Assembly (NCBI GenBank): GCA_963717505.1
Contig: OY970342.1
Coordinates: 544,001-608,000 of the forward strand
Length of the DNA: 64,000 bases
Direction: 5' to 3'
Source of the DNA: Candidatus Eiseniibacteriota bacterium
GTDB lineage: Bacteria; Eisenbacteria; RBG-16-71-46
Under the pieces are notes generated by a model that worked only from the letters and a program-made list of their open reading frames with translations, ran no database searches and was not told the origin of the DNA. Shown one piece after another: positions 15,014-30,535 of this stretch (position 1 is the first letter of the stretch; each line of letters opens with the position of its first letter). Both the position numbers and the translations under genes were made by a program.

Positions 15014-15074
15014 GGGGCTGCTTCTATCTCCCTGCGTGGCCGAACCGCTGGGGCCGGCACGCGCTGGTGGTCGA

Positions 15075-15439: not shown

Positions 15440-15505
15440 GGGTTGCTTCGGACCTCCTGAGTTGCCGCGCTCCCGGCACGGTGCCGGATCACGCGGGTCT
15501 TCGGA

Positions 15506-16051
15506 CTATCGAACATCCTCGACACGCACGACCGCCGGCCGCGTCGGGACACCGAGCCGCGGTGCGGCGGTGATCCCGGCCACGAGCGCCGGTTCCTCGA
15601 GCATGCCGTGGTCTTGCGTACAATGAGCGCAGCCACCGACCGCCGCGGGTGTCGCGCACTCGCGGCACGTTTCCAGATAGGCGAGCCCTTCGAGCAGCTC
15701 ACGCTCGAGCTGCTGGTGCCGATCGATGGCCGCGCGCGTCTCGTCGAGCTTGCGCTCGAACAAGGTTCGCAGCTCACCCATCGCCCCCGGCCCCCGCTCG
15801 GCGGACCACCACGACCGCAACACCTCGCGCATCTCCTGGAGGGAGAAACCGAGGCCGTGCAGCAGGTCGATCCAGCGAACCCGCTCGATCGCCGACTCCT
15901 CGAAGAGCCGGAAGCCGCCGCTCGAGCGCGTGGCCGGTTTGAGCAGACCCAACTCTTCGTAGAGGTGAATCGCCCGTACCGACTTTCCGGTTTGCCGGGC
16001 GAGGTCCCCCACGCGGAGGAGGTGCTCTCGGGTCGAAGTCATCGTCGCCAT
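15506..16051 (-). CDS. MerR-family transcriptional regulator with C-terminal CxxC-x8-CxxC
   Basis: RVGDLARQTGKSVRAIHLYEELGLL.P..RSSGGFRLF HTH, coiled coil, then CRECATPAAVGGCAHC. Confidence 0.92.
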   Translation of the reverse strand: MATMTSTREHLLRVGDLARQTGKSVRAIHLYEELGLLKPATRSSGGFRLFEESAIERVRWIDLLHGLGFSLQEMREVLRSWWSAERGPGAMGELRTLFERKLDETRAAIDRHQQLERELLEGLAYLETCRECATPAAVGGCAHCTQDHGMLEEPALVAGITAAPRLGVPTRPAVVRVEDVR

Positions 16052-16867: not shown

Positions 16868-16966
16868 GGCCTGACAGGCTGTTCTTCGGCTGGCTGGCCA
16901 TACGGACCGCTCTCCCGAGCGGCGCCGGTGCGGACTCATGCCGAAAACGTTTCCCGGAGGTTCTCT

Positions 16967-17476
16967 GTGAAACTTGGGCATCGGGGCCGCTTCGGAGCGG
17001 CCATCGTGGGCGTCCTGTTCGTCGCACTGACGGCGACCGCTCACGCCACGGTTCAGGTCCGGCTGACTGCACACCGGATCCTGAAGGACGCGAAGGGTGC
17101 GGAATCGTTCCAGATCGCCGAGCAGATCAAGCCCGGCGAGTCCGTCGAGTACCGCGCGGTCTATCAGAACGACGGCGACGCCGGCGTCGACAAGCTGGTC
17201 GCGACGCTGCCGATTCCCGCCGGAACCGAGTTCATCGCAGGCACGGCGTCGCCGGCCGGCGCGCAGGCCAGCCTCGACGGCAAGACCTTCGCCCCCATGC
17301 CGCTCAAGCGCAAGGTTCGACTCAGCGACGGCCGTGAGGTCGAGCGCGAAGTGCCGACCGCCGAGTACCGCTTTCTGCGCTGGTCGCTGGGCAGTCTCGG
17401 TTCGCGCAAGGAGCAGATCGTCCGCACACGGGTTCGCGTGACCGCGCTTTCCGCCGGCACCGCGAGCGAACGGTGA
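16967..17476 (+). CDS. Secreted single truncated DUF11-type domain protein (candidate fimbrial chaperone)
   Basis: GGAGG then GTG; signal peptide ending TAHA; KPGESVEYRAVYQN...LPIPAGTEF...LRWSLGSL...VRTRVRV; lacks the Lys and Asp seen in the other copies. Confidence 0.8.
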   Translation: MKLGHRGRFGAAIVGVLFVALTATAHATVQVRLTAHRILKDAKGAESFQIAEQIKPGESVEYRAVYQNDGDAGVDKLVATLPIPAGTEFIAGTASPAGAQASLDGKTFAPMPLKRKVRLSDGREVEREVPTAEYRFLRWSLGSLGSRKEQIVRTRVRVTALSAGTASER

Positions 17477-17481
17477 CCGCC

Positions 17482-20082
17482 ATGACCCACCTTCGACTCG
17501 ATACCCGACTTGGTTTCGCCCTGCGGGGAGCGTTGCTCCTCGCACTCGGAATCCTCGCGTTCGCGATTCCCGCGTCCGCTGCACCGCCCGCCGGCACCTC
17601 GATCGGCAACCAGGCGTCGGCCCAGTATCTCGACGCGACTTCGACGCTGCGCACCGCGACTTCGAACGTCGTCACCACCATCGTTCAGCAGGTCGCGAGC
17701 TTCACGTTGACCGCGAACGGCAGCGTCACGTCCTCGCCGGGCGGCCAGGTGATCTTCCCGCACACCCTGACCAACACCGGCAACGGCACCGACGACTTCC
17801 CGCTCACGCTGTCGAACGTGGTCGCGGATGACTTCGACCTGACCGGTCTCGCGATCTATCTGGACGCGAACGGCGACGGGGTGCCGGACAACTTCACCAA
17901 CCTGACGACCACGGGATCGGTCGCCGCCGGCGCCGCGTTCCGCTTCGTGGTGGTTGGAAGCGTGCCCGGAACCCAGGTCGGCGGGCAGATCGGCCGCATG
18001 CGGATCGATGCGTCCAGCACGTTCGACCCCGGCCAGGCCACGAACAATCTCGATCAGGTCACCGTCACCGGCAACGCAGTGGTCAGCGTGACCAAGGCGA
18101 TCAACCAGAACAACGGGGCTTCGCCGAGCGGTCCGCACACCTACACCCTGAGCTACAACAACTCGGGCAACAGCACCGCGACCGGCCTGCTGCTCACCGA
18201 CCTGGTTCCGGCTGGAATGACCTACGTGCCGGGCAGCGGTCGCTGGAGCGTCACCGGAGCCACGGTGCTGACCGACGGAAGCGCCGCCGACGCCCAGGGC
18301 GTCGTGCCGAACACCGTGATCTACGACTTCGGCGCGACCACCGGTGGCACGGTCACCGCCCGGATCGCGCAGGTGCCTCCGGGCGCCAGCGGGACCCTGA
18401 CGTTCGACGTCACCGTCAACGCGGGCCTCGGACCGCAGACCATCAGCAACAACGCGACCTACGCGTACAACGACGGTGCGGTCAACGTCGGTCCGTTCGC
18501 CACCAACTTCGCGCCGTTCACGGTCAACCAGGCGGTGTCGCTGACCTTCGCCGGTCAGACGATCCCGATCGCGGTCCAGGGCGCGACCATCTCGTACACC
18601 AACACGCTGACCAACACCGGCAACGGCACCGATCGCTTCGACATCGTGATCGGCGCTTCGACCTTCCCGGCCGGCACCAGCTACGCGCTATACCAGAGCG
18701 ACGGCGTGACGCCGCTGTCGGACACCAACGCCAACGGCACGCCGGACACCGGTCCGCTGGCCGCGGGCGCGGCCTACGATGTCGTTCTGCGACTGACGCT
18801 GCCGACGTCGGCTACCGGCGGTCCGTTCCAGGTCGACAAGACGGCGACCTCGATCTCGAACGTCGCGGTCAACGCCACGGCGACCGACGTCCTGACCACG
18901 ATCACGCCGAATGCCGTCGACCTGACCAACAACTCCCCCGGCGGCGCTGCGCCGGGCGCGGGCGCTGGTCCCGAACTTACGGCGGTGGTGACCAACGCCA
19001 CCAACCCGGCGACCACCACGCGCTTCACGCTGTACGTCAACAACTACAGCACGATCGCGGACAACTTCGATCTGGCGGCGAGCACGGACGGTTCGTTCGG
19101 CTCGATCACGCTGCCGGCGGGTTGGTCCGTGACCTTCTTCGACGCGTCGAACGCGATCATCACCAACACCGGCAGTATCGCCGGCAGCGGCAACGTGCTG
19201 GTCTACGCCGACGTCACGATTCCCGCGGGCTTTGCGGCGAGCACGAACAGCATCTACTTCCGCGCTCGCTCACCGGTTTCGCTGGCCGTCGATTACATCC
19301 ATGACGCGGTGACCGTCAACCCGGTTCGCACCCTGACGCTGGTGCCCAACAACTCCGGACAGCTGACGCCGGGCGGCGCGACCACCTACGCCCACATCCT
19401 GTCCAACACCGGCAACGTGCTGGAAGGTGACGGCGTGGCGAGCGTGGTTTCGCTGACCATGACCAACAACGCCGCCTCGTGGAGCTCGGCGCTGTACGTG
19501 GACAGCAACAACAACGGCTCGCTCGACGTCGGCGACGCCGCGATCGCCGATCTCGGCACCATCGGTGGGCTGGCCTCCGGCGCGAGCGTGCGTCTGTTCG
19601 TGCGTGTCTTCTCGCCGGCCGGTGCTCCACTCGGCGCCACCAACCTGACCACGCTGACCGCGACCACGACCAACGGCACCTACGTCTCGGCGCCGCCGGC
19701 GCTGGTGAACGCAACGGACCTGACCACGGTCCTCAACGGCCAGCTGCAGCTGGTCAAGCGACAGGCGCTCGATGCCGACTGTGACGGCCTTCCCGACGGA
19801 CCTTACTCGTTGGTGAACATCACGGCCGGTGCGATCCCTGACGCGTGCATCTGCTACGAGCTGGTGGTGACGAACGTCGGTACGGCGTCGGTGACCGCGG
19901 TGGTCGTCGACGACGCCACGCCCGCGAACACGACCTATTGGGATGCGGCGCCGGCGTCGAGCACCCAGGGCTTCGTCACCGCACCGCCGGGCAACACCGC
20001 CGGAACGATTTCCGCCGCGGTCGGCATCCTGGCGCCGGGTGCGTCGGCAACGATTCTGTTCGGAGTTCACATCGACCCCTAA
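17482..20082 (+). CDS. Secreted multi-Ig DUF11 protein (candidate major fimbrial shaft subunit), 866 aa
   Basis: Signal peptide ending PASA; N-terminal PAGTSIGNQA...SNVVTTIV; several TNTGN Ig domains with DxNxDG loops; one full DUF11 domain; C-terminal truncated DUF11. Alternative GTG start at 17473. Confidence 0.88.
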   Translation: MTHLRLDTRLGFALRGALLLALGILAFAIPASAAPPAGTSIGNQASAQYLDATSTLRTATSNVVTTIVQQVASFTLTANGSVTSSPGGQVIFPHTLTNTGNGTDDFPLTLSNVVADDFDLTGLAIYLDANGDGVPDNFTNLTTTGSVAAGAAFRFVVVGSVPGTQVGGQIGRMRIDASSTFDPGQATNNLDQVTVTGNAVVSVTKAINQNNGASPSGPHTYTLSYNNSGNSTATGLLLTDLVPAGMTYVPGSGRWSVTGATVLTDGSAADAQGVVPNTVIYDFGATTGGTVTARIAQVPPGASGTLTFDVTVNAGLGPQTISNNATYAYNDGAVNVGPFATNFAPFTVNQAVSLTFAGQTIPIAVQGATISYTNTLTNTGNGTDRFDIVIGASTFPAGTSYALYQSDGVTPLSDTNANGTPDTGPLAAGAAYDVVLRLTLPTSATGGPFQVDKTATSISNVAVNATATDVLTTITPNAVDLTNNSPGGAAPGAGAGPELTAVVTNATNPATTTRFTLYVNNYSTIADNFDLAASTDGSFGSITLPAGWSVTFFDASNAIITNTGSIAGSGNVLVYADVTIPAGFAASTNSIYFRARSPVSLAVDYIHDAVTVNPVRTLTLVPNNSGQLTPGGATTYAHILSNTGNVLEGDGVASVVSLTMTNNAASWSSALYVDSNNNGSLDVGDAAIADLGTIGGLASGASVRLFVRVFSPAGAPLGATNLTTLTATTTNGTYVSAPPALVNATDLTTVLNGQLQLVKRQALDADCDGLPDGPYSLVNITAGAIPDACICYELVVTNVGTASVTAVVVDDATPANTTYWDAAPASSTQGFVTAPPGNTAGTISAAVGILAPGASATILFGVHIDP

Positions 20083-20093
20083 CCCGGTATCCC

Positions 20094-23000
20094 ATGCAGA
20101 GTATCCGGGTTCATCCAGCACGACACGGGCGCCCCGCGGAGTTCCACTCCGCGACGGGCGCCGTCGTGCTGGTATGCGTATTGGCCGGCACTGCGTTTTT
20201 TTTCACGCGCGCGCACGCGATTCCATATACGCGCGGCACCGCATCCCCGCTGGCGACGGTTTCCGGGCCGCCGCCCGGCGCTCTCGTCGACAACACGGCG
20301 TTCGCGGCTGGACTCGACTCGGCAACCGCGACCCCGCTCAACGTCGCCTCGAACCCGGTGAGAACGATCGTCGGCACGTTCGAGCGGCTGGCATGGGACG
20401 GCCCGTTCGGAGCACAGGTTCCGCAGGGCACGAGAGCGACGTTTCGCCACCGACTGGCCAACACGGGCAACGTTTCCTCGGAAGTGCGCCTCGACGTCGC
20501 GAATTCGTTCGGCGACGGCTTCGATCTCGCGAACTTCTCGCTCGCCCGTGACGACGACGCCGACGGCGTCCCGAGCCCGGGCGACAGCTCGATCGCGCTC
20601 GGAGACGCGATTCTCGTGCCTGCCGACGCGGTCGTGGACCTGCTGGTCGGCTTCGACGTTCCGGCCGGCACTCCGGCGGCGGTCGCAGCCGAGTTCATGC
20701 TGTCGGCGACGACGCTCGACCAGGCGGTGGTCGCGGCCGTCGTCGACACCGTGCGCACTCCCGCCGGTCCGACGCTGGCGTTCTACCGCGACGGCACTTA
20801 TGCCGCAACCACGCAGATCGCCGCCGGCGGCGCGAACCTGTTCGTCGAGGCCGGCGCGGTCGGCTGCAACCTGCGGCCGTTTGCCGCCGATACGCTCGCG
20901 ATCACGCTCCGCTCGCTGCGCCTCGGCGACCTCGAGACGTTCACCGCCATCGAGACGGGACCGGCCACCGGGCGCTTCCGCATCGGCCCGTTCGTCGGCA
21001 CCGTGCTCACGCCGCCGGGCGTCACCCCCTACACCCTGGGTGTGCTCGAGACCGAAGCCAACGACGAGTTGGTCGCGAGCTTCGTCGGCTGTGGTGCGGT
21101 GCTCACCGAAGCGCGGCTGTGGATCGAGCCGGCCGGCGTCGCGTTCGATGCGCTCAGCAACTTCCCGGTGGCCGGCGTCCAGATCTCGCTGATCGACGTC
21201 ACCGGCCAGGGCAACGGCGGCTTCGCGGGCGGGCCGGCGCGCGTCTTCCAATCGGATGGCGTCACCCCGGCGCCCGACGCCGTCGTGACTGCATTCGATG
21301 GCCGCTATCTCTTCCCCTACGTGCTGGCCAGCACCTACCAGCTGAACGTGACGGCACCGGTCGACTACGCGTTTCCTTCGCAGGTCGCTCCCAGTGGGCT
21401 GCCCGTTGGCCACGTGATCGACGCTCAGGGCTCGTATGGCGCGCCGTTCGTGATCGCGACCGATGGCCCGCCGATCCGGCACGACGTTCCCCTCGATCCT
21501 CTCGGTGCGGCGGGTCTGCGCGTCGAGCTGACGGCGGCTCGGAACACGGCTGAGATCGGCGACGCCATCGATTTCACCGCGCGCGTGAGCAACGCTTCGG
21601 GCCGTCCGGTCGGGATGACTCAGCTGGCGATCGCATTGCCGCCGGGCTTTGCCTATCTGCCCGGCACGACCCGCCGCGACACGCTCTCTGCGCCCGATCC
21701 GGCCGGTGGGGCCGGCCCTTCGCTCGCGTTCGACGCCGGGGCCCTCGGCATCGGCGGTACCGCGACCGTTCGCTACCGGGTGCGCATCGGCGCCGGCGCC
21801 GAGCCCGGCGAGGCGCTGAGTCGCGCGAGTGCCACCGCGATCAACGCGACCTCGAACGTGGCCACGGCATCGGTGCTGATCGTGGACGGAGTGTTCGCCG
21901 ATGAAGCCGGCGTGCTCGGCACGGTGTTCGTGGACCTGAACGGCGATGGCCGCCGCAGTGCCGGCGACCCCGGACTTCCCGGCGTGCGCCTGGTGCTCGA
22001 CGACGGGACGTTTGCGGTCACCGACGGCGCCGGGCAGTACAGCCTCTACGGCCTGACGCCGCGCACGCACGGCCTGCGCGTCGATCCGTCGTCGCTCCCG
22101 GATGGCGCGGAAATGCTGGCCCTCGACCACCGCGATGCCGGAACGCCGGGGCTGCGCTTCGTCGATCTGCAGCGCGGCGACTTCCAGCGCGCGGACTTCG
22201 GCGTCGCGCCCGATTCGGCGACGCGCGTGGCGCCCGAGGAACGGCGCAAGGTGATCGCGTATTCCGGCGGCGAACTGGCCCCGACCGTTCGCCGTCCCCT
22301 GCCGGTCCAGGAGTTCGAGACCACGCCCGGCGATCCCCGGGCGCGGCCGACCTCAGGGGTCCTGGGCGAGTCGGGCCCGGCCCCGCTCGAACCACCGAAA
22401 CGCGGGGAATCCGCCGATCCGGCGACACCGACGATCTCGGCGCACGAAGGCGGAACGCGCGGGCGGCTTCCTCAGCCCGAGATGCCGGCTTTGCTGGCGT
22501 CGAACACCAGCGACCTCATCGATCCGGCGGACGGACTGTCCGGCACTCAGCCTTTCGGCTTCGTGGGCCGGCGGAACGGCGACACACTGAGCACCGACCA
22601 AATCACCGTGCGGGTTGCCGGACGCGCCGCCTTCGCGCTCGAGCTGCGCGTGAACGGCGACCTGGTGCCGCTGACCCGCGTCGGCACGCGACGCATCGAC
22701 GCCGACGCCGGGCTCCAGACCTGGGACTACATCGGCGTCCGCCTGCACCCGGGGCTCAACCAGCTCGAGCTGACCGAGCGCGCGACTGACGGCACCGCCG
22801 GCGCGCACGCCACGCTCGCGCTGGTGGCTCCGGACCGCCTGGGAACGCTCGAAATCACAGCACCCGAACGGGCCCCCGCCGACGGTCGCCGGCTCGCGTT
22901 CGTGCAAGTGCGAGCCGTCGATGAGCGCGGGGTGCCGATTGCCGGCCGCCTGGCGGTGACGCTGGTCGCCACGTTCGGCGAGTGGCAGATCGACGACGCT

Positions 23001-25586
23001 GATGGCTTCGCGCCGGGGGTTCAGACGGTGATCGAAGGCGGGGTCGCGGAGTTCGGACTCAGGACCCCGCGCGATCCGTGCCTGGCGACGATCACAGTCG
23101 CCGCCAGCGACCGACGCGCCGAGACTCAGATCGAATTCGTGCCCGACTTGCGGCCGCTGGTCGCGGTCGGCACCGCGGAATGGCAGGTGGGCTGGAACCA
23201 TCGCCTGAGCGGCTTCGCGACCTCGTATCGCGCGCGCACCGGATTCGAGCAGGCGTACTCGAGCATGGTCACCGAAGGCGTCGACGGCCGGCTGAGCGGC
23301 GGGGCGCGCGCGTCGCTGTTCGCCAAGGGTCGCGTCGGTCGCGATCTGCTGTTGACGCTGGGCTACGATTCCGATCGGCCGTCCGACCTCCGCCGCTTCC
23401 GCGACATCCAGCCCGACGCGTTCTACCCGCTCTATGGCGACGGTTCGGTGCGCGGCTACGACGCGCAGTCGTCGGGCAGCCTGTTCGCACGGCTCGACCG
23501 TCGCGGCGCGTCCCTGCTCTACGGCGACTTCATCACCGCCTCGTCGGGCAGTGCGCGCAGCCTGTCGACCTACAGCCGCAGCCTGACCGGAGTGCAGCAG
23601 CACTTCGAGAACCGGCGGACACGGGTGGACGCGTTCGCCAGCCGCGGCCGAGCGCGGCAGACGGTCGACGAGCTGCGCGGTCTCGGCGTCTCCGGCCCCT
23701 ACACTCTGTCGCGCACGCCGATCGTCGAGAACAGCGAACAGGTCGAGATCCTGGTGCGCGATCGCAACCAGCCGGGCGTCGTGCTGTCGGCGTCGGCGCG
23801 AACGCGATTCACCGACTACGAGGTCGACCCGTACACCGGCCGCCTGCTGTTCAAGCAACCGATTCCCAGCCACGACGGCGACCTGAATCCGGTGTCGATC
23901 CGCGTGGCCTACGAGACCCGTGACGGCGGCAATCCCTACTGGGTGGGCGGCGTCGAGACCCGCTTCAAGATCGATCCGCGGCTCGAAGTCGGCGGCAGCG
24001 TGGTCGCCGACGACGACGTCACGAACCCCTATCGACTCGGCAGCCTCTATGCCGGCGCGCGCATCGACGACGCGACCGAAGTCGAGGGCGAGTTCGCGCG
24101 CACCACCGCCGGCGGCAGTCCGGCGCTCGGCTGGCGGATGGAGGCGCGTCACGATCGCGTCGGGACCCAGGGCCGCTTCTGGGCGGCGAGCACTGACACC
24201 GGTTTCGCGAACCCGCACGCCGGCTACGCGCCCGGGCGCACGGAGCTGGGACTGCGCTGGTCGCATCGCCTCGACGAGCGCGCTCGTTTCCTGTCGGAGG
24301 GCATGTACACGGCCGAACCGGGGGGCGATCGCCGCGGCGGATTCCTGGTCGGCGTCGATCGCGGGCTCAGCTCGACGACGCGCGGCGAGTTCGGCATGCG
24401 TATCGCCGCCGAGCAGCGGGCGGTGGGCGAATCCGATCCGGCCAGCGTGGCACTGCGCGCGAAGCTCACGGCACAGGCCCCGGGCCACCCCGAACTCAGC
24501 GGCTTCGCCGAGCTCGAGCAGGACATGATCGAGTTCGACCGCCGACTGGCGGCGGTCGGCGGTGAATACCGCTTCAGCGCACGCGGCCGCCTGTACGCGC
24601 GCCACGAGCTGGCCTCGACCCTCACCGGCCCGTTCGCGCTGACTGCCGGGCAGCGCCGCCTGGCCACGGTGGTCGGAGTCGACGCCGACGTGACGCGCGG
24701 CGCCCATCTGTTCAGCGAATACCGCCTGGCCGACGCGTTCGCTGCCCGCGAGGCCGAGGCGGTGCTCGGCCTGCGGAATGCCTGGCAGGTCGGCGACTAC
24801 CGGATCAACACGTCGTTCGAGCGCGTGAGCCCGCTCGATGCGACCTCGACCGGGCCGACCACCGCGCTCGCCGGTGGCCTCGAAGCCATGGCCGACCCCG
24901 CGATCAAGATGGCTCTGCGCATGGAAGGTCGGACATCGCGGGCGAACGACGGCTACCTGACGACGATGGCCGCGGCGTTCCGGGTCGATCGCGCGTGGAG
25001 CGTGGTCGCGCGCACGCTCGCCGACCTCAACACCGGCCGTGACCGCGGCAACACGTTGCGGCTGCGGAACCAGATCGGCTTCTCGTTCCGTCATCCGGAC
25101 CTCGAGGTGCTCGATGCGCTCGGGCGCTACGAAATGCGCCTCGACCGCGAGCCGACCGACGCCACGCGCCGCACGCGCCACCTGGCGCACGTCCTTTCGT
25201 TCCACACCACCGGTCGCCTGTACGAGTCGTTCGAGACGTCGTTCGCCTGGGCGGCAAAGCTGGCCGACGAGAGCGCGGACGGCCTGGTCACGCACTCGAC
25301 CGCACAGTGGCTACACGGCCGCGTCGCGCGCGGATTCGCCAAGCACTGGGACGCGGGAGTTCACGGGAGCACGCTGATGGGCTCGGGATCGGAGCGCACC
25401 GGGCTCGGCGCCGAGATCGGCCGGCAGATGCAGCCGGGCGTCTGGATGTCGGCCGGCTGGAATCGCTTCGGCTACTTCGATCCCGATCTGCCCGACGAGG
25501 CCTACACGCGCGCCGGCTTCTACCTGCGGGTGCGCGCCCGCTTCGACGAATCGATCGTCGGCCGCATCGCCGGAGGTGGCCGATGA
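20094..25586 (+). CDS. Large secreted protein: Ig/DUF11/SdrD-B-like domains plus C-terminal outer-membrane beta-barrel (candidate anchor/translocon), 1830 aa
   Basis: Hydrophobic leader ending RAHA; GTVFVDLNGDG SdrD-B-like motif; about 800 aa of amphipathic strands from about 23150 ending GFYLRVRARF. Start position is uncertain. Confidence 0.82.
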   Translation: MQSIRVHPARHGRPAEFHSATGAVVLVCVLAGTAFFFTRAHAIPYTRGTASPLATVSGPPPGALVDNTAFAAGLDSATATPLNVASNPVRTIVGTFERLAWDGPFGAQVPQGTRATFRHRLANTGNVSSEVRLDVANSFGDGFDLANFSLARDDDADGVPSPGDSSIALGDAILVPADAVVDLLVGFDVPAGTPAAVAAEFMLSATTLDQAVVAAVVDTVRTPAGPTLAFYRDGTYAATTQIAAGGANLFVEAGAVGCNLRPFAADTLAITLRSLRLGDLETFTAIETGPATGRFRIGPFVGTVLTPPGVTPYTLGVLETEANDELVASFVGCGAVLTEARLWIEPAGVAFDALSNFPVAGVQISLIDVTGQGNGGFAGGPARVFQSDGVTPAPDAVVTAFDGRYLFPYVLASTYQLNVTAPVDYAFPSQVAPSGLPVGHVIDAQGSYGAPFVIATDGPPIRHDVPLDPLGAAGLRVELTAARNTAEIGDAIDFTARVSNASGRPVGMTQLAIALPPGFAYLPGTTRRDTLSAPDPAGGAGPSLAFDAGALGIGGTATVRYRVRIGAGAEPGEALSRASATAINATSNVATASVLIVDGVFADEAGVLGTVFVDLNGDGRRSAGDPGLPGVRLVLDDGTFAVTDGAGQYSLYGLTPRTHGLRVDPSSLPDGAEMLALDHRDAGTPGLRFVDLQRGDFQRADFGVAPDSATRVAPEERRKVIAYSGGELAPTVRRPLPVQEFETTPGDPRARPTSGVLGESGPAPLEPPKRGESADPATPTISAHEGGTRGRLPQPEMPALLASNTSDLIDPADGLSGTQPFGFVGRRNGDTLSTDQITVRVAGRAAFALELRVNGDLVPLTRVGTRRIDADAGLQTWDYIGVRLHPGLNQLELTERATDGTAGAHATLALVAPDRLGTLEITAPERAPADGRRLAFVQVRAVDERGVPIAGRLAVTLVATFGEWQIDDADGFAPGVQTVIEGGVAEFGLRTPRDPCLATITVAASDRRAETQIEFVPDLRPLVAVGTAEWQVGWNHRLSGFATSYRARTGFEQAYSSMVTEGVDGRLSGGARASLFAKGRVGRDLLLTLGYDSDRPSDLRRFRDIQPDAFYPLYGDGSVRGYDAQSSGSLFARLDRRGASLLYGDFITASSGSARSLSTYSRSLTGVQQHFENRRTRVDAFASRGRARQTVDELRGLGVSGPYTLSRTPIVENSEQVEILVRDRNQPGVVLSASARTRFTDYEVDPYTGRLLFKQPIPSHDGDLNPVSIRVAYETRDGGNPYWVGGVETRFKIDPRLEVGGSVVADDDVTNPYRLGSLYAGARIDDATEVEGEFARTTAGGSPALGWRMEARHDRVGTQGRFWAASTDTGFANPHAGYAPGRTELGLRWSHRLDERARFLSEGMYTAEPGGDRRGGFLVGVDRGLSSTTRGEFGMRIAAEQRAVGESDPASVALRAKLTAQAPGHPELSGFAELEQDMIEFDRRLAAVGGEYRFSARGRLYARHELASTLTGPFALTAGQRRLATVVGVDADVTRGAHLFSEYRLADAFAAREAEAVLGLRNAWQVGDYRINTSFERVSPLDATSTGPTTALAGGLEAMADPAIKMALRMEGRTSRANDGYLTTMAAAFRVDRAWSVVARTLADLNTGRDRGNTLRLRNQIGFSFRHPDLEVLDALGRYEMRLDREPTDATRRTRHLAHVLSFHTTGRLYESFETSFAWAAKLADESADGLVTHSTAQWLHGRVARGFAKHWDAGVHGSTLMGSGSERTGLGAEIGRQMQPGVWMSAGWNRFGYFDPDLPDEAYTRAGFYLRVRARFDESIVGRIAGGGR

Positions 25587-28500
25587 GCCGCGACCTCCTC
25601 CGCCGCATGGCGAGCGCGTGGGTCCGGATTCTCGGCGGGCTCGCGGTGGCCGGTTGCCTGTCGGCATCGCCCGCAGCGGCCCAGGTGTTCCGCAACTTCA
25701 CGCCGCGATTCACCACCAACACCACCGGCGACATCACCCTGGTCGGCAACACGATCATGAGCTGCAGCGCCGGCGGCGGCTGCACCACCGCACGCAACGG
25801 CGGCGGCGGCAACCAGAACAACAACGATTGGAACATGCAGTACGTGGACGTCGACGGCGACGGCACCACGTTCAGCTCGAGCCGCGCCACGCTCACGCTC
25901 CCGGTCGGCGCCACGGTGGTGTGGGCCGGACTCTACTGGGGCGGCAACTCCAACAACGCCAACCGCAACACGTGTCGGTTCGCGTCCCCGGCTGCGGCCT
26001 ACGCGACGCTGACCGCCGATCAGCTCGACAACACCGGGTCGGCATACTCGGCGTTCGAGGACGTCACGGCGCGCGTCCAGACCGGCGGCAGCGGCCAGTA
26101 CACAGTGGGCAACGTCTACTCGACCACTGGCACCAACAACTACGGCGGCTGGTCGCTGGTGGTCGTTTATCAGCTCGCGAGCGCGCCGGCTCGCAACCTG
26201 GTGGTGTTCGACGGCTACGCCGAAGTCGCCCCCGGAGCCTCGGTCAACATCGCGGTCAGCGGCTTCCTGACCCCGCCGGCCGGCGCGGTGAACACCACGC
26301 TGGGTGCGGTGACCTACGAAGGCGACCGCGGCTTCACCGGCGATGACTTCGACCTGAACGGCATCGTGCTCTCCGACGGCGACAATCCGGCCAACAACTT
26401 CTTCAACAGCTCGATCGCCCTCCTCGACGTCCAGTTCACCAACAAGAACCCGAACTACGTGAACCAGCTCGGCTTCGACGCCGACCTGGTGAACGCGAGC
26501 GGCATCCTGGCCAACGGCGCGACCAGCGCCACGATCCAGCTCAGCTCGACCGACGATCGCTTCTACCCGGCCGCGGTCACGTTCGCCACCGACCTCTACG
26601 TGCCGGTGTTGAGCGGCAACGGCTTCACCAAGCTGGTCGCCGATTTGAACGGGGCGCCGGCCCGTCCGGGCGACGTCCTCGAGTACACAGTGTTCCTGCG
26701 CAACACCGGCAACGACGCGTCGCTCAACACCGTCGCGCGCGACACGATCCCGGCGAACACCGCCTACGTGGCCGGTTCGATGACCGTGCTCAACGGTCCC
26801 AACGCCGGCGCCAAGAGCGACGGCGCTGGCGACGACCAGGCCGAGTTCGACGTCGCCGGCAACCGCGTGGTGTTCCGCCTCGGGACCGGAGCCAATGCGG
26901 CGAATGGCGGCCAGCTGAGCCCGGGGGTTCAGACCTCGTTCCGGTTCCGCGCGGTCGTCACCTCGCCGTCGCCGACCGGCACCGTGGTCTCGAATCAGGC
27001 GGTCGCCAACTTCAACGCCGCCCAGCTCGGCACGGCACTCGTTTCGATCAGCGATGCCGACACGATCACCGCCGGCACGCAACGCACCAACGTCACGGTG
27101 ACCGCGCCGACCCTGTCGGGCGTGGTCTTCGAAGATCCGAACTACGGCGGTGGGGCCGGCCGGAATCGCGTGACATCGTCGGGAGTCGTGCGGCCGGGCG
27201 CGCGCGTCGAGCTGTACAACGCGGCCGGCGCGTTCCAGTCGTTCAGCACCACCAATGCCTCGGGGGTCTACAGCTTCAACGGCTGGGGCCCGGGCGGCTA
27301 CACGGTACGCGTGGTCAACAGCACGGTGAGCTCGTCGCGCGCCGGCGCGGTGGCCGGGCTGCTCCCGGTGCAGACCTTCCGCACCAACGCCGCGACCGGG
27401 GTTGCGGTGGACGACGCGCAGCGCGTCGGCGGCGAGAGCCCCGGACTGCAGGACGCCGGATCCAACCTGACCAACGCGACTTTGGCGTCGCTGACCACCG
27501 CGTCCGCAACCCCGCAATCGATCGCACCGGTGACTCTGGGCACCGCCGATCTGTCGGGGGTCGAGTTCGGTTTCAACTTCAGCACCATCGTCAACGCCAA
27601 CGACAGCGGTTTCGGGAGCCTGCGCCAGTTCCTGATCAACGCCAACGCACTGGCGAACACCGGCCTGGCCCAGGCCGGACTTCCGGCCGGGATCGAGCAC
27701 GCGATCTTCATGGTCACCGACGGTGCGGCGCACCCGGGCCTGCGCGCCGGCCTGCCGAACCTGCTGACCGGCGGCGTGGTCGCGATCAACGTGCTCAGCA
27801 CGCTGCCGTCGATCACCGGTGCATCGACCACCATCGACGGCGGGCTCCAGACCGCGAACGTCGGCGACACCAACCCCGGCACGCTCGGGACCGGGGGCTC
27901 GGCCGGCGTCGACCTGCTGTCGCTGCCGGCGGTCGCCCGGCCCGAGGTCGAGATTCGCGACGGCGCCGCCCTGGCGCTCGGGCTCGACCTCATGGCGAGC
28001 GACATCACGCTCGCCCGTCTCGCGGCCTACGGCTTCGGCAACGCCCCGGGAAACAACAACAGCGCCGTGGTACGCGTCTGGACCAATGGCCTGCGCGCGA
28101 TCCTCGACGGCTGCGTCCTGGGCACCAGCGCCTCGAGCTTCACCGATCCCGGCGCCGGCGTGCGTTCGGGCGGCGACGTCGTGCGCTCGGCGGGGGGCGA
28201 CGACGGCATTGTGCGCAACAGCCTGATCGGATTCGGCGCCGGGTCGGGCATCGCACTCGCCGGCACCTCCAATGGCTGGCAGATCCTGACGAACGAGATT
28301 CGTGGCAACGCGATCGGCAACTCGACGCGCGACGGCATCAGCATCGAAGCCGGCGCCACCGAGTTGGTTCGCGGCAACCTGATCGCGAGCCACGAGGGCT
28401 GCGGCATCGACGCCGGAGCCAGTACCGGCGGCAACACCTTCGTGAACAACACGGTGACGCGCAGCGGCCTCGGTGCGGGTGCCGCCGAGACTCCCGGCGT

Positions 28501-30535
28501 GCGGGTCGGCGGCAGCACCAGCCTGGTGGATCGCTGCATTCTGTTCGACAACTACGGCGCGGGCGTGATGGTGGCCTCGGGCGGCACCGCGGTCACGATC
28601 ACCCGCAACTCGATCTACGGCAATGGAACGATCAATGGCGGCCTCGGTGGCCCGAGCGGCCAGGTCGGCATCGATCTGCTGACGGCGGCCGATACCCCGG
28701 CCCACGGCACGGCCCCATACTTCACGATCAACGACAACGGCGATGGCGACGGCGGCGGCAACGGTCTACTCAACTTCCCGGTGCTCGAGTCCGCGAGCAT
28801 CGCCGGCAGCAACGTCACGCTCACCGGCTGGGCGCGTCCGGGGTCAGCGATCGAGGTCTTCCTCGCGAATCCGGACCCCTCCAGCTTCGGCGAGGGTCAG
28901 ACTTATCTTCTGACCGTCACCGAAGGCTCGGGCGCGGACCTCGACGCGACGACCGGTCCCTATTCCGGACCGATCAACGGCGTGAATCAGGGCACAGACA
29001 ACACCAATCGCTTCCGCTTCACCGTACCGGCGCCGGGGGGCCTGACCTCGGGCGTGCGTCTGACCGCGACCGCGACGGTGGCGCTCGCGACTTCCGAGTT
29101 CTCCGGACTGGTGGTGGTCGGCGGAGGCTTCGCCGTCAGCGGGTTCGGTTACCAGGACCTCGACCACGACCTGCAACGCGACGCGGTCGAGAGCGGCATC
29201 GGCAGCGCGCTGTTCGTCAAGCTCGTGCCGGTGTCATCGCCGGGTTCGGCGCAGTCGGTGGCCAGTGTCGACCCCGGAACCGGTGTGTGGAGCATCGGCT
29301 TCGTTTCCTCGGGCAACTACACGCTGGTGCTCGATGACAACAGTCTTGTCTCCGACGTCACGCCCAATTACCCCGCCGGCTGGATCGGAACCGAAGCCCC
29401 GGCGGGAACGCGCCCCCTGACCGTGACCGCAGTCAACGTCTCCGACCAGGACTTCGGCCTCTGGCACGGCGGTCGAGTCGAGGGCGTGGTGTTCGACGAC
29501 GATGGCGCGGGCGGCGGCGCGGCGAACGACGGCGTGCGGCAGGGTGGCGAGGCCGCGATCGCCGGGGTTCGCATGCGGCTCGCGGCCGTTCCGTGCGCCG
29601 GAGGATTGTGCGACAGCACGCTGACCGACGGCGCCGGGTTCTATGCCCTGTGGATCCCGCATGCGGCTTCGGGCGCCACCACTGAAGTGCGCGAAGCCAA
29701 TCCGTCGGTGTGGATCTCGACCGGGGGCGGCGCCGGGACGACCGGGGGCAGCTACGTGCGCGCGGCCGACGCGGTCTCTTTCGTTCCCCTGAGCGGCAAC
29801 CTCTACACCGGCGCCGTCTTCGGCGACGTGGCGCCGAACCAGTTGGTGCCTCCCGGAATGCAGACCGGGACCGAAGGCTCCGTCGTGTTCCATCCCCACA
29901 CGTTCGTCGCCGGGAGCGCCGGCAGCGTGACCTTCGGGCTCGGGCAGGCCCCGGCGCCGGTGATCCCGGGCTGGGGGGCTCAGCTCTATCGCGACCTGGA
30001 CTGCGACGGCGCCATCGACGCCGGCGAGCCGGCGATCGTCGCGCCCCAGGCGGTCACCGGCGGCCAGACGATGTGCCTCGTACTACGGCACTCGATTCCG
30101 GCCGGAGCACCTCTTGGCGCGCTCGAGCAGGTCACGGTTTCGGCAAGCATGAGCTACACCGGGGCCGCACCGCCGCTCGTCACCGTCGTTCTGCTCGACG
30201 ATCGCACCACCGTGATGGACGCCGGCACGTTGCGGATCGTCAAGAGCGTCAGCTCGGGCACCGCGCTGCCGGGCGATCTGATCACCTACACGATCACCTA
30301 CACCAACCTGGGCCCGGCTCCGGTCTCGGCGATCGAGATCCAGGACATGGTGCCGGGCTACACGATGTTCCAGTCCGCGGGCTGCGGCGGGCTGGGCAGC
30401 GGACTCTCGGCGTGCGGGGTGACCACGCAGCCGCCGCTGAACGGAACCGGACCGTTGCGTTGGACCCTGACCGGCGCGCTCGATCCGGGCGCAACCGGCA
30501 GCGTCACGTTCCAGGTACAGGTCGAGACGCCCTAG
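25583..30535 (+). CDS. Large secreted adhesin-like protein: N-terminal putative adhesin domain, DUF11, SdrD-B-like, parallel beta-helix, C-terminal truncated DUF11 (candidate tip adhesin), 1650 aa
   Basis: ATGA overlap with the upstream stop; signal peptide ending PAAA; WAGLYWGG / GGWSLVVVY domain; GSLRQFLINAN then N-x-I beta-helix repeats; ends VTFQVQVETP. Confidence 0.85.
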   Translation: MSRDLLRRMASAWVRILGGLAVAGCLSASPAAAQVFRNFTPRFTTNTTGDITLVGNTIMSCSAGGGCTTARNGGGGNQNNNDWNMQYVDVDGDGTTFSSSRATLTLPVGATVVWAGLYWGGNSNNANRNTCRFASPAAAYATLTADQLDNTGSAYSAFEDVTARVQTGGSGQYTVGNVYSTTGTNNYGGWSLVVVYQLASAPARNLVVFDGYAEVAPGASVNIAVSGFLTPPAGAVNTTLGAVTYEGDRGFTGDDFDLNGIVLSDGDNPANNFFNSSIALLDVQFTNKNPNYVNQLGFDADLVNASGILANGATSATIQLSSTDDRFYPAAVTFATDLYVPVLSGNGFTKLVADLNGAPARPGDVLEYTVFLRNTGNDASLNTVARDTIPANTAYVAGSMTVLNGPNAGAKSDGAGDDQAEFDVAGNRVVFRLGTGANAANGGQLSPGVQTSFRFRAVVTSPSPTGTVVSNQAVANFNAAQLGTALVSISDADTITAGTQRTNVTVTAPTLSGVVFEDPNYGGGAGRNRVTSSGVVRPGARVELYNAAGAFQSFSTTNASGVYSFNGWGPGGYTVRVVNSTVSSSRAGAVAGLLPVQTFRTNAATGVAVDDAQRVGGESPGLQDAGSNLTNATLASLTTASATPQSIAPVTLGTADLSGVEFGFNFSTIVNANDSGFGSLRQFLINANALANTGLAQAGLPAGIEHAIFMVTDGAAHPGLRAGLPNLLTGGVVAINVLSTLPSITGASTTIDGGLQTANVGDTNPGTLGTGGSAGVDLLSLPAVARPEVEIRDGAALALGLDLMASDITLARLAAYGFGNAPGNNNSAVVRVWTNGLRAILDGCVLGTSASSFTDPGAGVRSGGDVVRSAGGDDGIVRNSLIGFGAGSGIALAGTSNGWQILTNEIRGNAIGNSTRDGISIEAGATELVRGNLIASHEGCGIDAGASTGGNTFVNNTVTRSGLGAGAAETPGVRVGGSTSLVDRCILFDNYGAGVMVASGGTAVTITRNSIYGNGTINGGLGGPSGQVGIDLLTAADTPAHGTAPYFTINDNGDGDGGGNGLLNFPVLESASIAGSNVTLTGWARPGSAIEVFLANPDPSSFGEGQTYLLTVTEGSGADLDATTGPYSGPINGVNQGTDNTNRFRFTVPAPGGLTSGVRLTATATVALATSEFSGLVVVGGGFAVSGFGYQDLDHDLQRDAVESGIGSALFVKLVPVSSPGSAQSVASVDPGTGVWSIGFVSSGNYTLVLDDNSLVSDVTPNYPAGWIGTEAPAGTRPLTVTAVNVSDQDFGLWHGGRVEGVVFDDDGAGGGAANDGVRQGGEAAIAGVRMRLAAVPCAGGLCDSTLTDGAGFYALWIPHAASGATTEVREANPSVWISTGGGAGTTGGSYVRAADAVSFVPLSGNLYTGAVFGDVAPNQLVPPGMQTGTEGSVVFHPHTFVAGSAGSVTFGLGQAPAPVIPGWGAQLYRDLDCDGAIDAGEPAIVAPQAVTGGQTMCLVLRHSIPAGAPLGALEQVTVSASMSYTGAAPPLVTVVLLDDRTTVMDAGTLRIVKSVSSGTALPGDLITYTITYTNLGPAPVSAIEIQDMVPGYTMFQSAGCGGLGSGLSACGVTTQPPLNGTGPLRWTLTGALDPGATGSVTFQVQVETP

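What the first reader, a model, noticed from the sequence alone, without database searches (positions are those of the whole stretch)
17581..20082. Shaft subunit is a circularly split domain with Ca-binding-like loops
Seen: donor at 17581-17685 (Asn 17608). The acceptor starts at 19741 (Lys 19756, Asp 19912) and ends ...ASATILFGVHIDP*, exactly where the internal full domain continues ...TLTFDVTVNAGLGPQTISNNA. About 690 aa of tandem Ig domains separate the two ends, so self-complementation is unlikely and head-to-tail polymerisation is favoured. DxNxDG-type loops (DANGDG, DTNANG, DSNNNG, DADCDG) and Cys residues in the acceptor suggest Ca2+ and disulfide stabilisation. The pair could be a new peptide-tag/catcher tool.
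Basis: partly seen in the sequence, partly recalled or inferred. Interest (0 to 1): 0.78.

Follow-up and report, generated by a model that had tools for sequence, protein, structure and literature searches.

The report
Self-locking split-domain pilus shaft protein
This secreted protein carries the last two strands of its own final domain at its opposite end, so copies probably plug into each other head to tail, and likely bond covalently, to build a surface fibre of a kind not yet described for bacteria with an outer membrane.

Summary
The 869-aa protein (17473..20082) ends in a DUF11/CLIPPER Ig domain that stops before its last hairpin. The mature N-terminus is that hairpin. Profile alignment to the protein's own complete internal domain puts the acceptor end (P869) at residue 317 and the donor start (P39) at residue 320. 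It also aligns K762/D814/N46 with the internal triad K208/D243/N326.

The three residues are kept in 124-125 of 126 distant representatives, where only 3% of columns are that conserved. Rare natural fusions place the hairpin directly after the acceptor in one chain.

The gene sits in a four-gene cassette, in the same order in all 41 loci that hold all four genes, across several diderm phyla:
- a small acceptor-like protein without the catalytic residues;
- the shaft, with donor and acceptor;
- a 1830-aa protein with a donor hairpin and a large outer-membrane barrel;
- a tip adhesin with an acceptor only.

This logic favours head-to-tail polymerisation. The covalent bond, Ca2+ binding and the export route are inferred. 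The complex prediction was never accepted by the tool.

Seven full-text searches found no description. Earlier notes of this scan report the same kind of locus on other DNA.

The parts
16928..17476 (+). Small secreted DUF11-like protein (182 aa). It is acceptor-like but lacks the Lys and the catalytic Asp. Candidate periplasmic chaperone or cap for donor hairpins. Its stop overlaps the shaft start by 4 nt.
   Evidence: Weak DUF11/TIGR01451 match. hhalign to the shaft acceptor gives probability 95.9%, running to the acceptor's last residue; against the full domain the alignment ends at about residue 322, before the Asn hairpin. The motif ATLPIP replaces V-D-x-T-P. K+R make up 14.7% against 2.2% in the shaft. 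Present in 77 of 79 related loci.
17473..20082 (+). Shaft subunit gene, 869 aa: signal peptide, donor hairpin, five complete Ig-like domains, C-terminal acceptor domain.
17473..17580 (+). Signal peptide (residues 1-36, ...AIPASA|APPAG).
   Evidence: Hydrophobic helix 11-29 in the AF2 model. In 121 homologues the conserved block APPAGTxIGN follows variable leaders. The cleavage site is inferred from the A-x-A rule (recalled).
17581..17685 (+). Donor hairpin (residues 37-71). Asn46 (17608-17610) is the proposed isopeptide Asn. Ser64 and Asn65 on the second strand are also conserved.
   Evidence: hhalign single hit to residues 320-356, with N46 on N326. N46 is kept in 125 of 126 representatives and 313 of 315 pooled sequences. 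pLDDT is 47-56 in the monomer model.
18073..18540 (+). Complete internal CLIPPER/DUF11 domain (residues about 201-356) with triad K208 (18094), D243 (18199), N326 (18448). It serves as the reference for the split domain.
   Evidence: Pfam DUF11 44.3 bits against a cut-off of 24.6. Triad kept in 310, 312 and 308 of 315. The best PDB sequence hit of its profile is the solved CLIPPER domain 9ifr_A, with a weak E of 0.053.
17863..17889 (+). DANGDGVPD loop (residues 131-139), a DxDxDG-type candidate Ca2+ site in domain 1.
   Evidence: Motif count of 4 against 0.006 expected. D131 kept in 124, G136 in 126 and D139 in 112 of 126.
18721..18747 (+). DTNANGTPD loop (residues 417-425), a candidate Ca2+ site in domain 3.
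   Evidence: D417 in 113 and D425 in 119 of 126.
19501..19527 (+). DSNNNGSLD loop (residues 677-685), a candidate Ca2+ site in domain 5.
   Evidence: D677 in 126, G682 in 117 and D685 in 98 of 126.
19741..20079 (+). Acceptor domain (residues 757-869), a CLIPPER domain without its last hairpin. Lys762 (19756) and Asp814 (19912) are the proposed reactive and catalytic residues. The DADCDGLPD loop (19771-19797) is an insertion after the Lys strand. Cys770 (19780) and Cys792 (19846) are a likely disulfide.
   Evidence: ends at the equivalent of residue 317; K762 in 124 and D814 in 125 of 126; 71 of 74 3'-complete shaft ORFs end in this domain; K in 70 of 71; D in 70 of 71; each Cys in 65 of 71.
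20094..25586 (+). Anchor protein gene, 1830 aa: signal peptide, donor hairpin, Ig-like domains (DUF11-like, SdrD_B), large C-terminal beta-barrel.
20268..20372 (+). Donor hairpin of the anchor (residues 59-93, PPPGALVDNTAFAAG...SNPVRTIV; Asn67 at 20292).
   Evidence: Read. The same motif at the N-terminus of anchors in other loci matched a donor regex in 47 of 64, against 8 of 802 other ORFs of 300 aa or more.
22944..25583 (+). C-terminal region of the anchor (residues 951-1830), all-beta, predicted to be a large outer-membrane barrel.
   Evidence: AF2 with 50 orthologues: mean pLDDT 76.7 and 49 strands, 32 of them consecutive and 8-18 residues long. Of the Foldseek matches shown, all but one (9ea7, ApoB100) are outer-membrane barrels: SlpA, MtrB, LptD, TonB-dependent receptors, FimD; TM only 0.11-0.24. 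Outer-membrane barrel Pfam families match in up to 11 of 50 orthologues, none in the window's own copy.
25583..30535 (+). Tip adhesin gene, 1650 aa: beta-helix, SdrD_B-like and other domains, with a C-terminal acceptor. Its start overlaps the anchor stop by 4 nt.
30230..30532 (+). Acceptor domain of the tip (residues 1550-1650). The Lys (..RIVK..) and Asp (..IQDMVP..) are kept, and the protein ends ..VTFQVQVETP*. There is no donor at its N-terminus.
   Evidence: The DUF11 profile matches positions 2-86 of 114 and then the protein ends. It is the only other acceptor-type domain in the genome. In related loci 30 of 32 complete tips end this way, with K in 29 of 30 and D in 29 of 30. The donor regex matched 1 of 42 tips.

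Best explanation
The gene encodes the major subunit of a surface fibre that is built by hairpin complementation between chains.

The subunit. After signal-peptide removal, the subunit starts with a two-strand hairpin (residues 37-71, with Asn46). It ends with a CLIPPER/DUF11 Ig domain that lacks exactly that hairpin. This domain keeps the first-strand Lys762 and the catalytic Asp814.

The link. The hairpin of one subunit inserts into the open C-terminal domain of the next and completes its fold. Lys762 and Asn46 then most likely form a spontaneous isopeptide bond with loss of ammonia. Complete CLIPPER domains form this bond within one chain.

Polarity, fixed by the neighbouring genes:
- The tip adhesin has an acceptor only.
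- The shaft has a donor and an acceptor.
- The 1830-aa anchor has a donor only, plus a large outer-membrane barrel that holds, and perhaps exports, the fibre.
- The small upstream protein is an acceptor-like domain without Lys or Asp. It is proposed to hold donor hairpins reversibly in the periplasm until assembly.

Extra features. Four conserved DxDxDG-type loops and a Cys770-Cys792 pair next to the Lys strand probably stiffen the rod through Ca2+ and a disulfide.

Shown here: the split-domain anatomy, its conservation and the cassette logic.
Inferred: the covalent bond, the order and place of assembly, the chaperone role, Ca2+ binding and the disulfide.
For: (1) Anatomy.
- The Pfam DUF11 match of the C-terminal piece stops at profile position 80 of 114, against 98 for the internal domain.
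- hhalign puts the acceptor on residues 190-317 (96.8%, E 2.4e-10) and the donor on residues 320-356 (84.9%, E 6.4e-6, the only hit). K762/D814/N46 fall on K208/D243/N326.

(2) Conservation.
- N46, K762 and D814 are kept in 121 of 121 close homologues.
- They are kept in 125, 124 and 125 of 126 cluster representatives at 37-54% identity. There the mean top-residue frequency is 0.50 and only 3.0% of 833 columns reach 97%.
- No row has more than 6 residues after the acceptor.
- The mature protein has only three Lys, and two of them are the triad lysines.

(3) Natural fusions. P0126, P0125 and the 3437-aa ORF of L060 read ...FGVQI, a short linker, then ...V[GD]NQ[ST]SATY...TSNTV... So the hairpin follows the acceptor in cis.

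(4) Cassette logic.
- Among 79 related loci from Eisenbacteria, Verrucomicrobiota, Acidobacteriota, Beta- and Gammaproteobacteria, Nitrospirota and Abditibacteria, the 41 that hold all four genes have them in one order.
- The anchor follows the shaft in 63 of 65 loci with room for it.
- 71 of 74 shafts and 30 of 32 tips end in an acceptor.
- The donor motif matched 75 of 78 shafts, 47 of 64 anchors, 1 of 42 tips, 0 of 77 small proteins and 8 of 802 other ORFs.
- No fifth conserved gene was found in 24 diverse loci, so there is no sortase, ATPase or separate usher.

(5) The AF2 monomer leaves residues 31-70 at pLDDT 47-56. Domain 1 starts at about residue 77 with pLDDT of 73 or more.

(6) The anchor's C-terminal part is a predicted large outer-membrane barrel.

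(7) Precedent for the chemistry. CLIPPER domains form Lys-Asn bonds catalysed by Asp (PMC12617251, passages read). BsaA shows a donor-strand Asn locking to a Lys of the next monomer (bioRxiv 10.1101/2024.11.04.621531, abstract and section 8 read).
Against: - No structure of the donor-acceptor pair was obtained. The complex prediction was never accepted (18 hand-ins). The monomer model comes without coordinates, so where AF2 put the hairpin is unknown.
- The donor piece alone matches no Pfam family.
- The link to the solved CLIPPER structure 9ifr is weak (E 0.053), and that alignment stops before the Asn strand.
- A covariation test showed no donor-acceptor enrichment. Its positive control failed as well, so the test had no power.
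- In 6 anchors the hairpin is kept but the Asn is replaced (L022 V, L056 A, L062 S, L070 S, L071 S, L081 S). Complementation can therefore exist without the bond, at least at the base.
- What fills or protects the open acceptor before assembly is not known. How subunits cross the outer membrane is not known either.
- Ca2+ binding rests on a motif only.
- No expression data were found.
Confidence: 0.7

Rival explanations
1. The subunits polymerise head to tail by hairpin complementation, but the link stays non-covalent, as in chaperone-usher or TasA fibres. On this reading the Lys/Asp/Asn residues are kept for packing or folding only.
For: Six anchors keep the hairpin but lack the Asn. No chemistry was tested. 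The match to the solved isopeptide domain is weak.
Against: N46, K762 and D814 are among the 3% most conserved columns. They align with the intact internal triad of a family that is shown to cross-link (PMC12617251). The mature shaft has only three Lys.
Confidence: 0.13
2. The N-terminal hairpin completes the C-terminal domain of the same chain. The protein would then be a closed, monomeric or looped adhesin and not a polymer.
For: Sequence alone cannot tell cis from trans. AF2 draws beta strands at 44-69 in the monomer, at low confidence.
Against: The tip has an acceptor and no donor, and the anchor has a donor and no acceptor, in a conserved cassette. In natural fusions the hairpin after an acceptor leads on into the next unit's domain 1. 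About 685 residues of tandem Ig domains lie between the two ends.
Confidence: 0.07
3. The same complementation builds a sheet, sheath or matrix network and not a linear, tip-bearing pilus. The barrel protein would be only a porin-like anchor.
For: No image or stoichiometry exists. The multi-unit fusions end in dockerin-like repeats, which suggests matrix or scaffold uses in some lineages.
Against: Each subunit has one donor and one acceptor, which gives linear chains. There is a dedicated acceptor-only tip and a donor-only base.
Confidence: 0.05
4. There is no complementation. The last domain would be a degenerate, shortened Ig domain, and residues 37-71 would belong to domain 1.
For: The donor fragment has no Pfam match of its own.
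Against: hhalign gives abutting matches to one complete domain. The truncation point is exact in every one of 127 rows. The same truncation occurs in the tips. Natural fusions exist. The hairpin has low pLDDT while domain 1 is confident from about residue 77.
Confidence: 0.03

Closest known systems
CLIPPER (DUF11, PF01345) intramolecular isopeptide domains of fibrillar adhesins; solved example 9IFR (PMC12617251)
   Same: The fold family is the same (Pfam match above the cut-off). The Lys / Asp / Asn arrangement is the same, and domain 2 of this protein is an intact copy.
   Different: In CLIPPER domains described so far the bond is within one chain. Here the terminal domain is split, so the Asn hairpin comes from another chain. 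The passages of the survey paper that I read do not mention split or intermolecular forms ('split' occurs 0 times in its text).
Clostridium perfringens BsaA (TasA family), 'exchange and lock' fibres (bioRxiv 10.1101/2024.11.04.621531)
   Same: An N-terminal donor segment carries an Asn. It inserts into the next monomer and is locked to a Lys with an acidic catalytic residue. No enzyme is needed.
   Different: The fold is unrelated (TasA-like). BsaA donates a single strand. Its host is monoderm, and its genes are linked to SipW and type IV pilus genes. It has no outer-membrane barrel, no acceptor-only tip and no tandem Ig rod.
Archaeal thread filament, Saci_0406 (PMC9715654)
   Same: Head-to-tail donor strand complementation, with a proposed intermolecular isopeptide.
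   Different: It occurs in archaea. The bond joins the N-terminal amine of Asp24 to Asn57 of subunit n+2. It has no Lys-Asp-Asn triad, no Pfam domain and no barrel anchor.
Chaperone-usher pili (Fim, Pap)
   Same: The polarity logic is the same: an adhesin with a groove only, shaft subunits whose N-terminal extension completes the preceding subunit's incomplete Ig fold, and an outer-membrane barrel at the base.
   Different: No PapD-like chaperone or usher family matches here. A hairpin is donated instead of one strand. The link is probably covalent. The barrel is fused to the terminal donor subunit. The putative chaperone would bind donors, not grooves. Each subunit is a six-domain rod.
SpyTag/SpyCatcher, SnoopTag/SnoopCatcher and isopeptag/pilin-C (engineered split isopeptide domains; recalled, plus PMC6539128 seen in a search listing only)
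   Same: One half of an isopeptide Ig domain carries the Lys, and a short peptide carries the partner residue. The two reconstitute and bond spontaneously.
   Different: Those pairs were made by cutting intact Gram-positive domains in the laboratory. Here the split is natural, it sits in a CnaA-like CLIPPER domain, and it is used for polymerisation.
Sortase-assembled pili of monoderm bacteria
   Same: Covalent, isopeptide-linked Ig-domain pilins with tip, shaft and base subunits.
   Different: The shaft has no LPXTG signal (it ends ...HIDP). The cassette has no sortase. The bond is proposed to be autocatalytic, between Lys and Asn side chains.

Membership tests
DUF11 / CLIPPER (PF01345) | Match to the Pfam profile above the gathering score | tested here: met
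   44.3 bits against a cut-off of 24.6, E 2.5e-11. TIGR01451 gives 49.8 bits against a cut-off of 24. The C-terminal piece alone scores 26.9 bits.
DUF11 / CLIPPER (PF01345) | Lys (first strand), catalytic Asp and Asn (penultimate strand) in register | tested here: met
   K208/D243/N326 in domain 2 are kept in 310, 312 and 308 of 315 sequences. K762/D814/N46 align to them. The Lys and Asp motifs align to 9ifr_A at a weak E of 0.053.
DUF11 / CLIPPER (PF01345) | All three residues in one contiguous domain (intramolecular bond) | tested here: not met
   For the terminal domain the Asn hairpin is absent in cis. The protein ends at the equivalent of residue 317. This feature is met only by domain 2.
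DUF11 / CLIPPER (PF01345) | The isopeptide bond actually forms | not testable with these tools
   This needs mass spectrometry or a structure.
Chaperone-usher pili | PapD-like periplasmic chaperone and usher (Pfam families) | tested here: not met
   No such family appears among the Pfam hits of the small protein, the shaft or the anchor, or of 50 anchor C-terminal regions. FimD appears only as one of many barrels, at TM 0.20-0.24.
Chaperone-usher pili | [quoted passage not shown] | tested here: met
   Met at sequence level, with a hairpin in place of one strand. No structure was obtained.
Sortase-assembled pili | C-terminal LPXTG sorting signal and a pilus sortase gene | tested here: not met
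   The shaft ends ...FGVHIDP with no LPXTG or hydrophobic tail. No further conserved gene was found in 24 loci.
TasA/BsaA exchange-and-lock fibres | TasA-like fold | tested here: not met
   Only DUF11-type and other Ig-type families match.
TasA/BsaA exchange-and-lock fibres | N-terminal donor with Asn; Lys plus an acidic residue in the receiving subunit | tested here: met
   N46 lies on the donor, and K762 and D814 lie in the acceptor. All three are conserved.
Classical autotransporters (type Va) | 12-strand C-terminal barrel (Pfam Autotransporter) with an N-terminal passenger | tested here: not met
   The anchor has its passenger at the N-terminus and its barrel at the C-terminus. But there is no Autotransporter match, and the all-beta region has about 49 predicted strands.

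The most novel reading that the evidence does not exclude
The four-gene cassette is a self-contained, enzyme-free and ATP-free pilus pathway of diderm bacteria, and a new class beside chaperone-usher, type IV, type V and curli.
- Subunits are held in the periplasm by a catalytically dead pseudo-acceptor that caps their donor hairpins. This is the mirror image of the PapD principle.
- They are handed over at a giant barrel that serves as both usher and final anchor.
- They become irreversibly locked by a naturally split Lys-Asn isopeptide domain.
- The Ca2+ loops, together with the disulfide-stapled loop beside the reactive Lys, make the acceptor competent only outside the cytoplasm.
- The shaft, tip and anchor pairs would then give ready-made tag/catcher pairs, possibly orthogonal to one another.
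Probability: 0.35. Interest if true: 0.9.

Novelty: new variant of a known kind. Interest (0 to 1): 0.8.

Why it matters
Covalent pili are textbook knowledge only for Gram-positive bacteria, where sortases make the bonds. A 2026 review of bacterial surfaces lists isopeptide-linked pili under sortases and monoderms alone (PMC13721041, passages read; only the first 300,000 of 525,587 characters are held).

This locus points to a widespread fibre in bacteria with an outer membrane that would polymerise and lock by itself. At least 451 matching stretches were found among species-representative genomes. It would do so through a domain that nature has split in the way protein engineers split SpyCatcher.

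If that is true, three things follow:
- A pilus assembly route is added.
- Many 'DUF11 repeat' and giant barrel genes get an explanation.
- A family of natural peptide-protein ligation pairs becomes available.

Cultured carriers make it testable: Polaromonas aquatica 36b22, Thiobacillus denitrificans RG, Ramlibacter pallidus HM2 and Uliginosibacterium sp. H1.

Tried and rejected
- Complex prediction (acceptor 735-869 with donor plus domain 1, 37-205). There is no result of any kind.
- AF2 of a natural fusion junction. The mixed alignment A3 put the donor fragments onto the acceptor part, so it was not used. The second folding job went to the anchor barrel instead.
- Covariation (MI with APC; 315 sequences, effective number 206). 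The donor showed no enrichment with the acceptor over other domains. The positive control, the domain-2 hairpin against its own body, showed none either. The test had no power.
- Foldseek of the whole shaft model gave only generic tandem-Ig matches.
- Sequence searches of the PDB with the anchor C-terminal part found nothing usable. A single-sequence search with domain 2 found only a chance Fab hit.
- The 'longer' homologue search with the acceptor found 3 proteins among 2413 candidates. Fused forms are rare, and the search is weak for long proteins.
It was repeated on 24 loci.
- No RNA holder was listed for the gene.
- The paper on haloarchaeal 'tafi' (PMC11821415) came up for 'DUF11' only because the word-start search matched DUF1102. 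It describes donor-strand fimbriae without isopeptides.
- The weak NCBIfam 'choice-of-anchor T' match (33.5 bits against a cut-off of 70) was not taken as membership.
- Literature searches for a description of this system found none. No supplementary files were read.
Full report
THE GENE AND ITS NEIGHBOURS

The finding lies in one open reading frame, 17473..20082 on the + strand, 869 aa. It matches Pfam DUF11 (44.3 bits, cut-off 24.6; best stretch residues 205-332 on profile positions 3-98 of 114) and TIGR01451.

Three co-oriented genes flank it:
- A 182-aa weak DUF11 protein (16928..17476). Its stop overlaps the shaft start.
- A 1830-aa protein (20094..25586) with DUF11-like and SdrD_B matches.
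- A 1650-aa protein (25583..30535) with beta-helix, SdrD_B and DUF11 matches.

THE OBSERVATION

- Asn46 is the aac codon at 17608.
- Lys762 and Asp814 fall at 19756 and 19912.
- The protein ends ...ASATILFGVHIDP.
- The four D-x-[DN]-x-[DN]-G-x-x-[DE] loops are present. Two thousand composition-preserving shuffles gave a mean of 0.006 such motifs and never more than one.

IS THE TERMINAL DOMAIN REALLY SPLIT?

The C-terminal 135 residues match the DUF11 profile only over positions 19-80 of 114. The complete internal domain matches positions 2-98. The tip protein's last domain likewise matches positions 2-86, and then the protein stops.

I cut profiles from an alignment of 127 diverse family members and compared them with hhalign:
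- The acceptor (745-869) aligns to residues 190-317 of the same protein (probability 96.8%, E 2.4e-10). K762 falls on K208, D814 on D243 and P869 on A317.
- The donor (38-76), searched against residues 77-744, has one hit only: residues 320-356 (probability 84.9%, E 6.4e-6; the next hit has probability 0.4%). N46 falls on N326.

Donor and acceptor are therefore abutting, non-overlapping parts of one CLIPPER-type domain, and the donor is a two-strand hairpin.

CLIPPER is the name given to DUF11 by a 2025 survey. That survey solved one such domain (9IFR) with a Lys-Asp-Asn isopeptide (PMC12617251, passages read). A profile of domain 2 finds 9ifr_A as its best PDB sequence match. The match is weak (E 0.053), and the alignment stops before the Asn strand.

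CONSERVATION

- In 121 close homologues (62-100% identity, 846-894 aa), N46, K762, D814, C770 and C792 are invariant.
- Of the 150 best cluster representatives from a scan of 1.84 billion proteins, I kept the 126 of 820-1010 aa and dropped 24. In these, N46, K762 and D814 are kept in 125, 124 and 125. The mean top-residue frequency is 0.50, and only 3.0% of 833 columns reach 97%. No row has more than 6 residues beyond the acceptor.
- Pooled over 315 sequences, whose source sets may overlap, the counts are 313, 312 and 313.
- The mature protein has only three lysines: K208, K456 and K762.
- The Cys pair is less general: 83 and 86 of 126.

COMPLEMENTATION IN TRANS RATHER THAN IN CIS

First, rare natural fusions exist. 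They are P0126 (2023 aa), P0125 (3865 aa) and a 3437-aa ORF in locus L060. In them the acceptor strand ...FGVQI is followed after a few residues by the hairpin (...V[GD]NQ[ST]SATY...TSNTV...) and then by the next unit's domain 1. The fused arrangement is what a head-to-tail polymer would look like if it were written as one chain. A search for longer proteins with the acceptor found only 3, so fusions are uncommon.

Second, the cassette supplies matching ends. A scan of species-representative genomes matched 609 stretches, of which 451 encode a relative. The best 79 loci come from Eisenbacteria, Verrucomicrobiota, Acidobacteriota, Beta- and Gammaproteobacteria, Nitrospirota and Abditibacteria, and include cultured strains. 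In these loci:
- The small gene is present in 77 of the 79, the anchor in 64 and a tip similar to this one in 42.
- All 41 loci that have the four genes have them in the same order.
- The anchor follows the shaft in 63 of 65 loci with at least 1500 nt of room.
- A similar tip follows a complete anchor in 41 of 49.
- Of the 8 loci without a similar tip, at least L055 has an unrelated 918-aa ORF that ends in an acceptor.
- Counting the window as well, 71 of 74 3'-complete shafts end in an acceptor (K in 70 of 71, D in 70 of 71). So do 30 of 32 complete tips (K in 29 of 30, D in 29 of 30).
- A donor regex matched 75 of 78 shafts, 47 of 64 anchors, 1 of 42 tips, 0 of 77 small proteins and 8 of 802 other ORFs of 300 aa or more.
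- Among the 17 anchors that missed, by eye 5 still have the Asn, 6 keep the hairpin with the Asn replaced, and 6 are split or over-extended ORFs.

In the window's own genome the only acceptor-type domains are those of the shaft and the tip. No fifth gene is conserved in 24 diverse loci.

The parts therefore fit one linear order: tip (acceptor), then n copies of shaft (donor and acceptor), then anchor (donor).

STRUCTURE PREDICTIONS

The AF2 monomer (74-row alignment) has mean pLDDT 85.1. It shows six beta domains, but residues 31-70 have pLDDT of only 47-56, and domain 1 becomes confident from about residue 77. Coordinates are not returned, so the hairpin's placement is unknown.

The anchor's last 880 residues, folded with 50 orthologues, are all-beta (mean pLDDT 76.7). 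There are 49 strands, of which 32 are consecutive and 8-18 residues long.

Of the Foldseek matches shown, all but one (9ea7, ApoB100) are outer-membrane barrels: Deinococcus SlpA, MtrB, LptD, TonB-dependent receptors and the FimD usher. The TM-scores are only 0.11-0.24, so only the barrel class is supported. Outer-membrane barrel Pfam families match some orthologues (OMP_b-brl 11, YfaZ 8, DUF2490 6, Porin_4 5, Phenol_MetA_deg 5, each of 50) but not the window's own copy. An Atlas look-up gave barrel-type names at score 0.95, which is a lead only.

THE SMALL PROTEIN

Its family of 78 sequences aligns to the acceptor through the acceptor's last residue (probability 95.9%). It aligns to the full domain only up to about residue 322 (96.0%). 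So it also lacks the hairpin.

It has ATLPIP where the acceptors have V-D-x-T-P, and it has no first-strand Lys. It is rich in charged residues (K+R 14.7% against 2.2% in the shaft).

I read it as a catalytically dead pseudo-acceptor that binds donor hairpins reversibly. This role is inferred and untested.

MECHANISM

Shown: the split anatomy, the register of the triad, the conservation, and the complementary ends within the cassette.

Inferred:
- The hairpin of subunit n+1 completes the last domain of subunit n, and Lys762 attacks Asn46 with Asp814 as catalyst.
- The barrel protein anchors the fibre and perhaps exports it.
- Either the fibre grows at the base, as in usher pili, or it grows distally from a displayed anchor donor.
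- The four DxDxDG-type loops bind Ca2+, and Cys770-Cys792 staples the loop inserted just after the Lys strand. That the motif binds Ca2+ is recalled knowledge, not tested here.

COMPARISON WITH KNOWN SYSTEMS

The chemistry and logic are closest to BsaA of Clostridium perfringens. There a donor-strand Asn35 locks to Lys74, with Glu56 as catalyst (bioRxiv 10.1101/2024.11.04.621531, abstract and section 8 read).

They are also close to archaeal threads (PMC9715654, passages read). The polarity resembles that of chaperone-usher pili.

The fold family is CLIPPER. The described CLIPPER bond is intramolecular, and the survey's text never uses the word 'split'.

No chaperone, usher, sortase, TasA or autotransporter family matches.

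Seven full-text searches found no description of a split DUF11 pilus. A 2026 review places isopeptide pili under sortases and monoderms only (only part of that text is held). No supplements were read.

Two earlier notes of this scan describe the same kind of locus in a gammaproteobacterium and a cyanobacterium. They agree with this reading but are not independent evidence.

WHAT IS MISSING

- The complex prediction could not be run.
- A covariation test lacked power.
- No RNA data were found.
- The bond, the fibre and the export route need the experiments listed under next steps.

Noticed in passing
L022, L056, L062, L070, L071, L081 (anchor N-termini): Six anchor proteins keep the donor hairpin but have Val, Ala or Ser in place of the Asn. 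In these lineages the link between fibre and barrel may be non-covalent, and perhaps releasable.
   Followed up: partly
window 18838-18840 (Lys456): The third and last lysine of the mature shaft, in domain 3, is invariant in close homologues but kept in only 239 of 315 family members. It could mark a further cross-link in part of the family. No partner residue was identified.
   Followed up: partly
P0125, P0126; L060:7421-17734: Multi-unit fusions of two to five shaft units in one polypeptide end in non-shaft repeats and dockerin-like D-x-D-C-D-G-I-V segments. In L060 a separate 975-aa shaft-like gene with donor and acceptor lies upstream.
   Followed up: partly
P0246: A 2272-aa protein joins the first 600 or so residues of a shaft (donor, domains 1-3) to an anchor with its barrel. 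The shaft and anchor N-terminal regions appear to be interchangeable modules.
   Followed up: no
L009:2-3898 and L051:2-7756: A second anchor-like barrel gene lies upstream of the cassette, which suggests tandem cassettes in some genomes.
   Followed up: no
L055:18663-21419 and seven other loci (L021, L056, L075, L076, L078, L081, L082): No tip similar to this window's tip follows the anchor. In L055 an unrelated 918-aa ORF with a C-terminal acceptor takes its place. The adhesin part of the tip seems freely exchangeable while the acceptor is kept.
   Followed up: partly
window 17473-17476 and 25583-25586: Four-base overlaps occur between the small and shaft genes and between the anchor and tip genes. 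They suggest translational coupling within the cassette.
   Followed up: no
window about 29990-30020 (tip residue 1471 of the mature numbering used): The tip carries one DLDCDGAID loop, with Cys at the same motif position as the shaft acceptor's DADCDGLPD. It sits in the domain before its acceptor.
   Followed up: no
window 13375-16051, minus strand: By eye, the upstream ORFs look like Suf iron-sulfur assembly genes (a SufC-like ATPase and a HesB/IscA-like protein) and a MerR-type regulator. Two long overlapping frames at 13375-15013 were not resolved. These names are recalled from motifs and were not tested.
   Followed up: no
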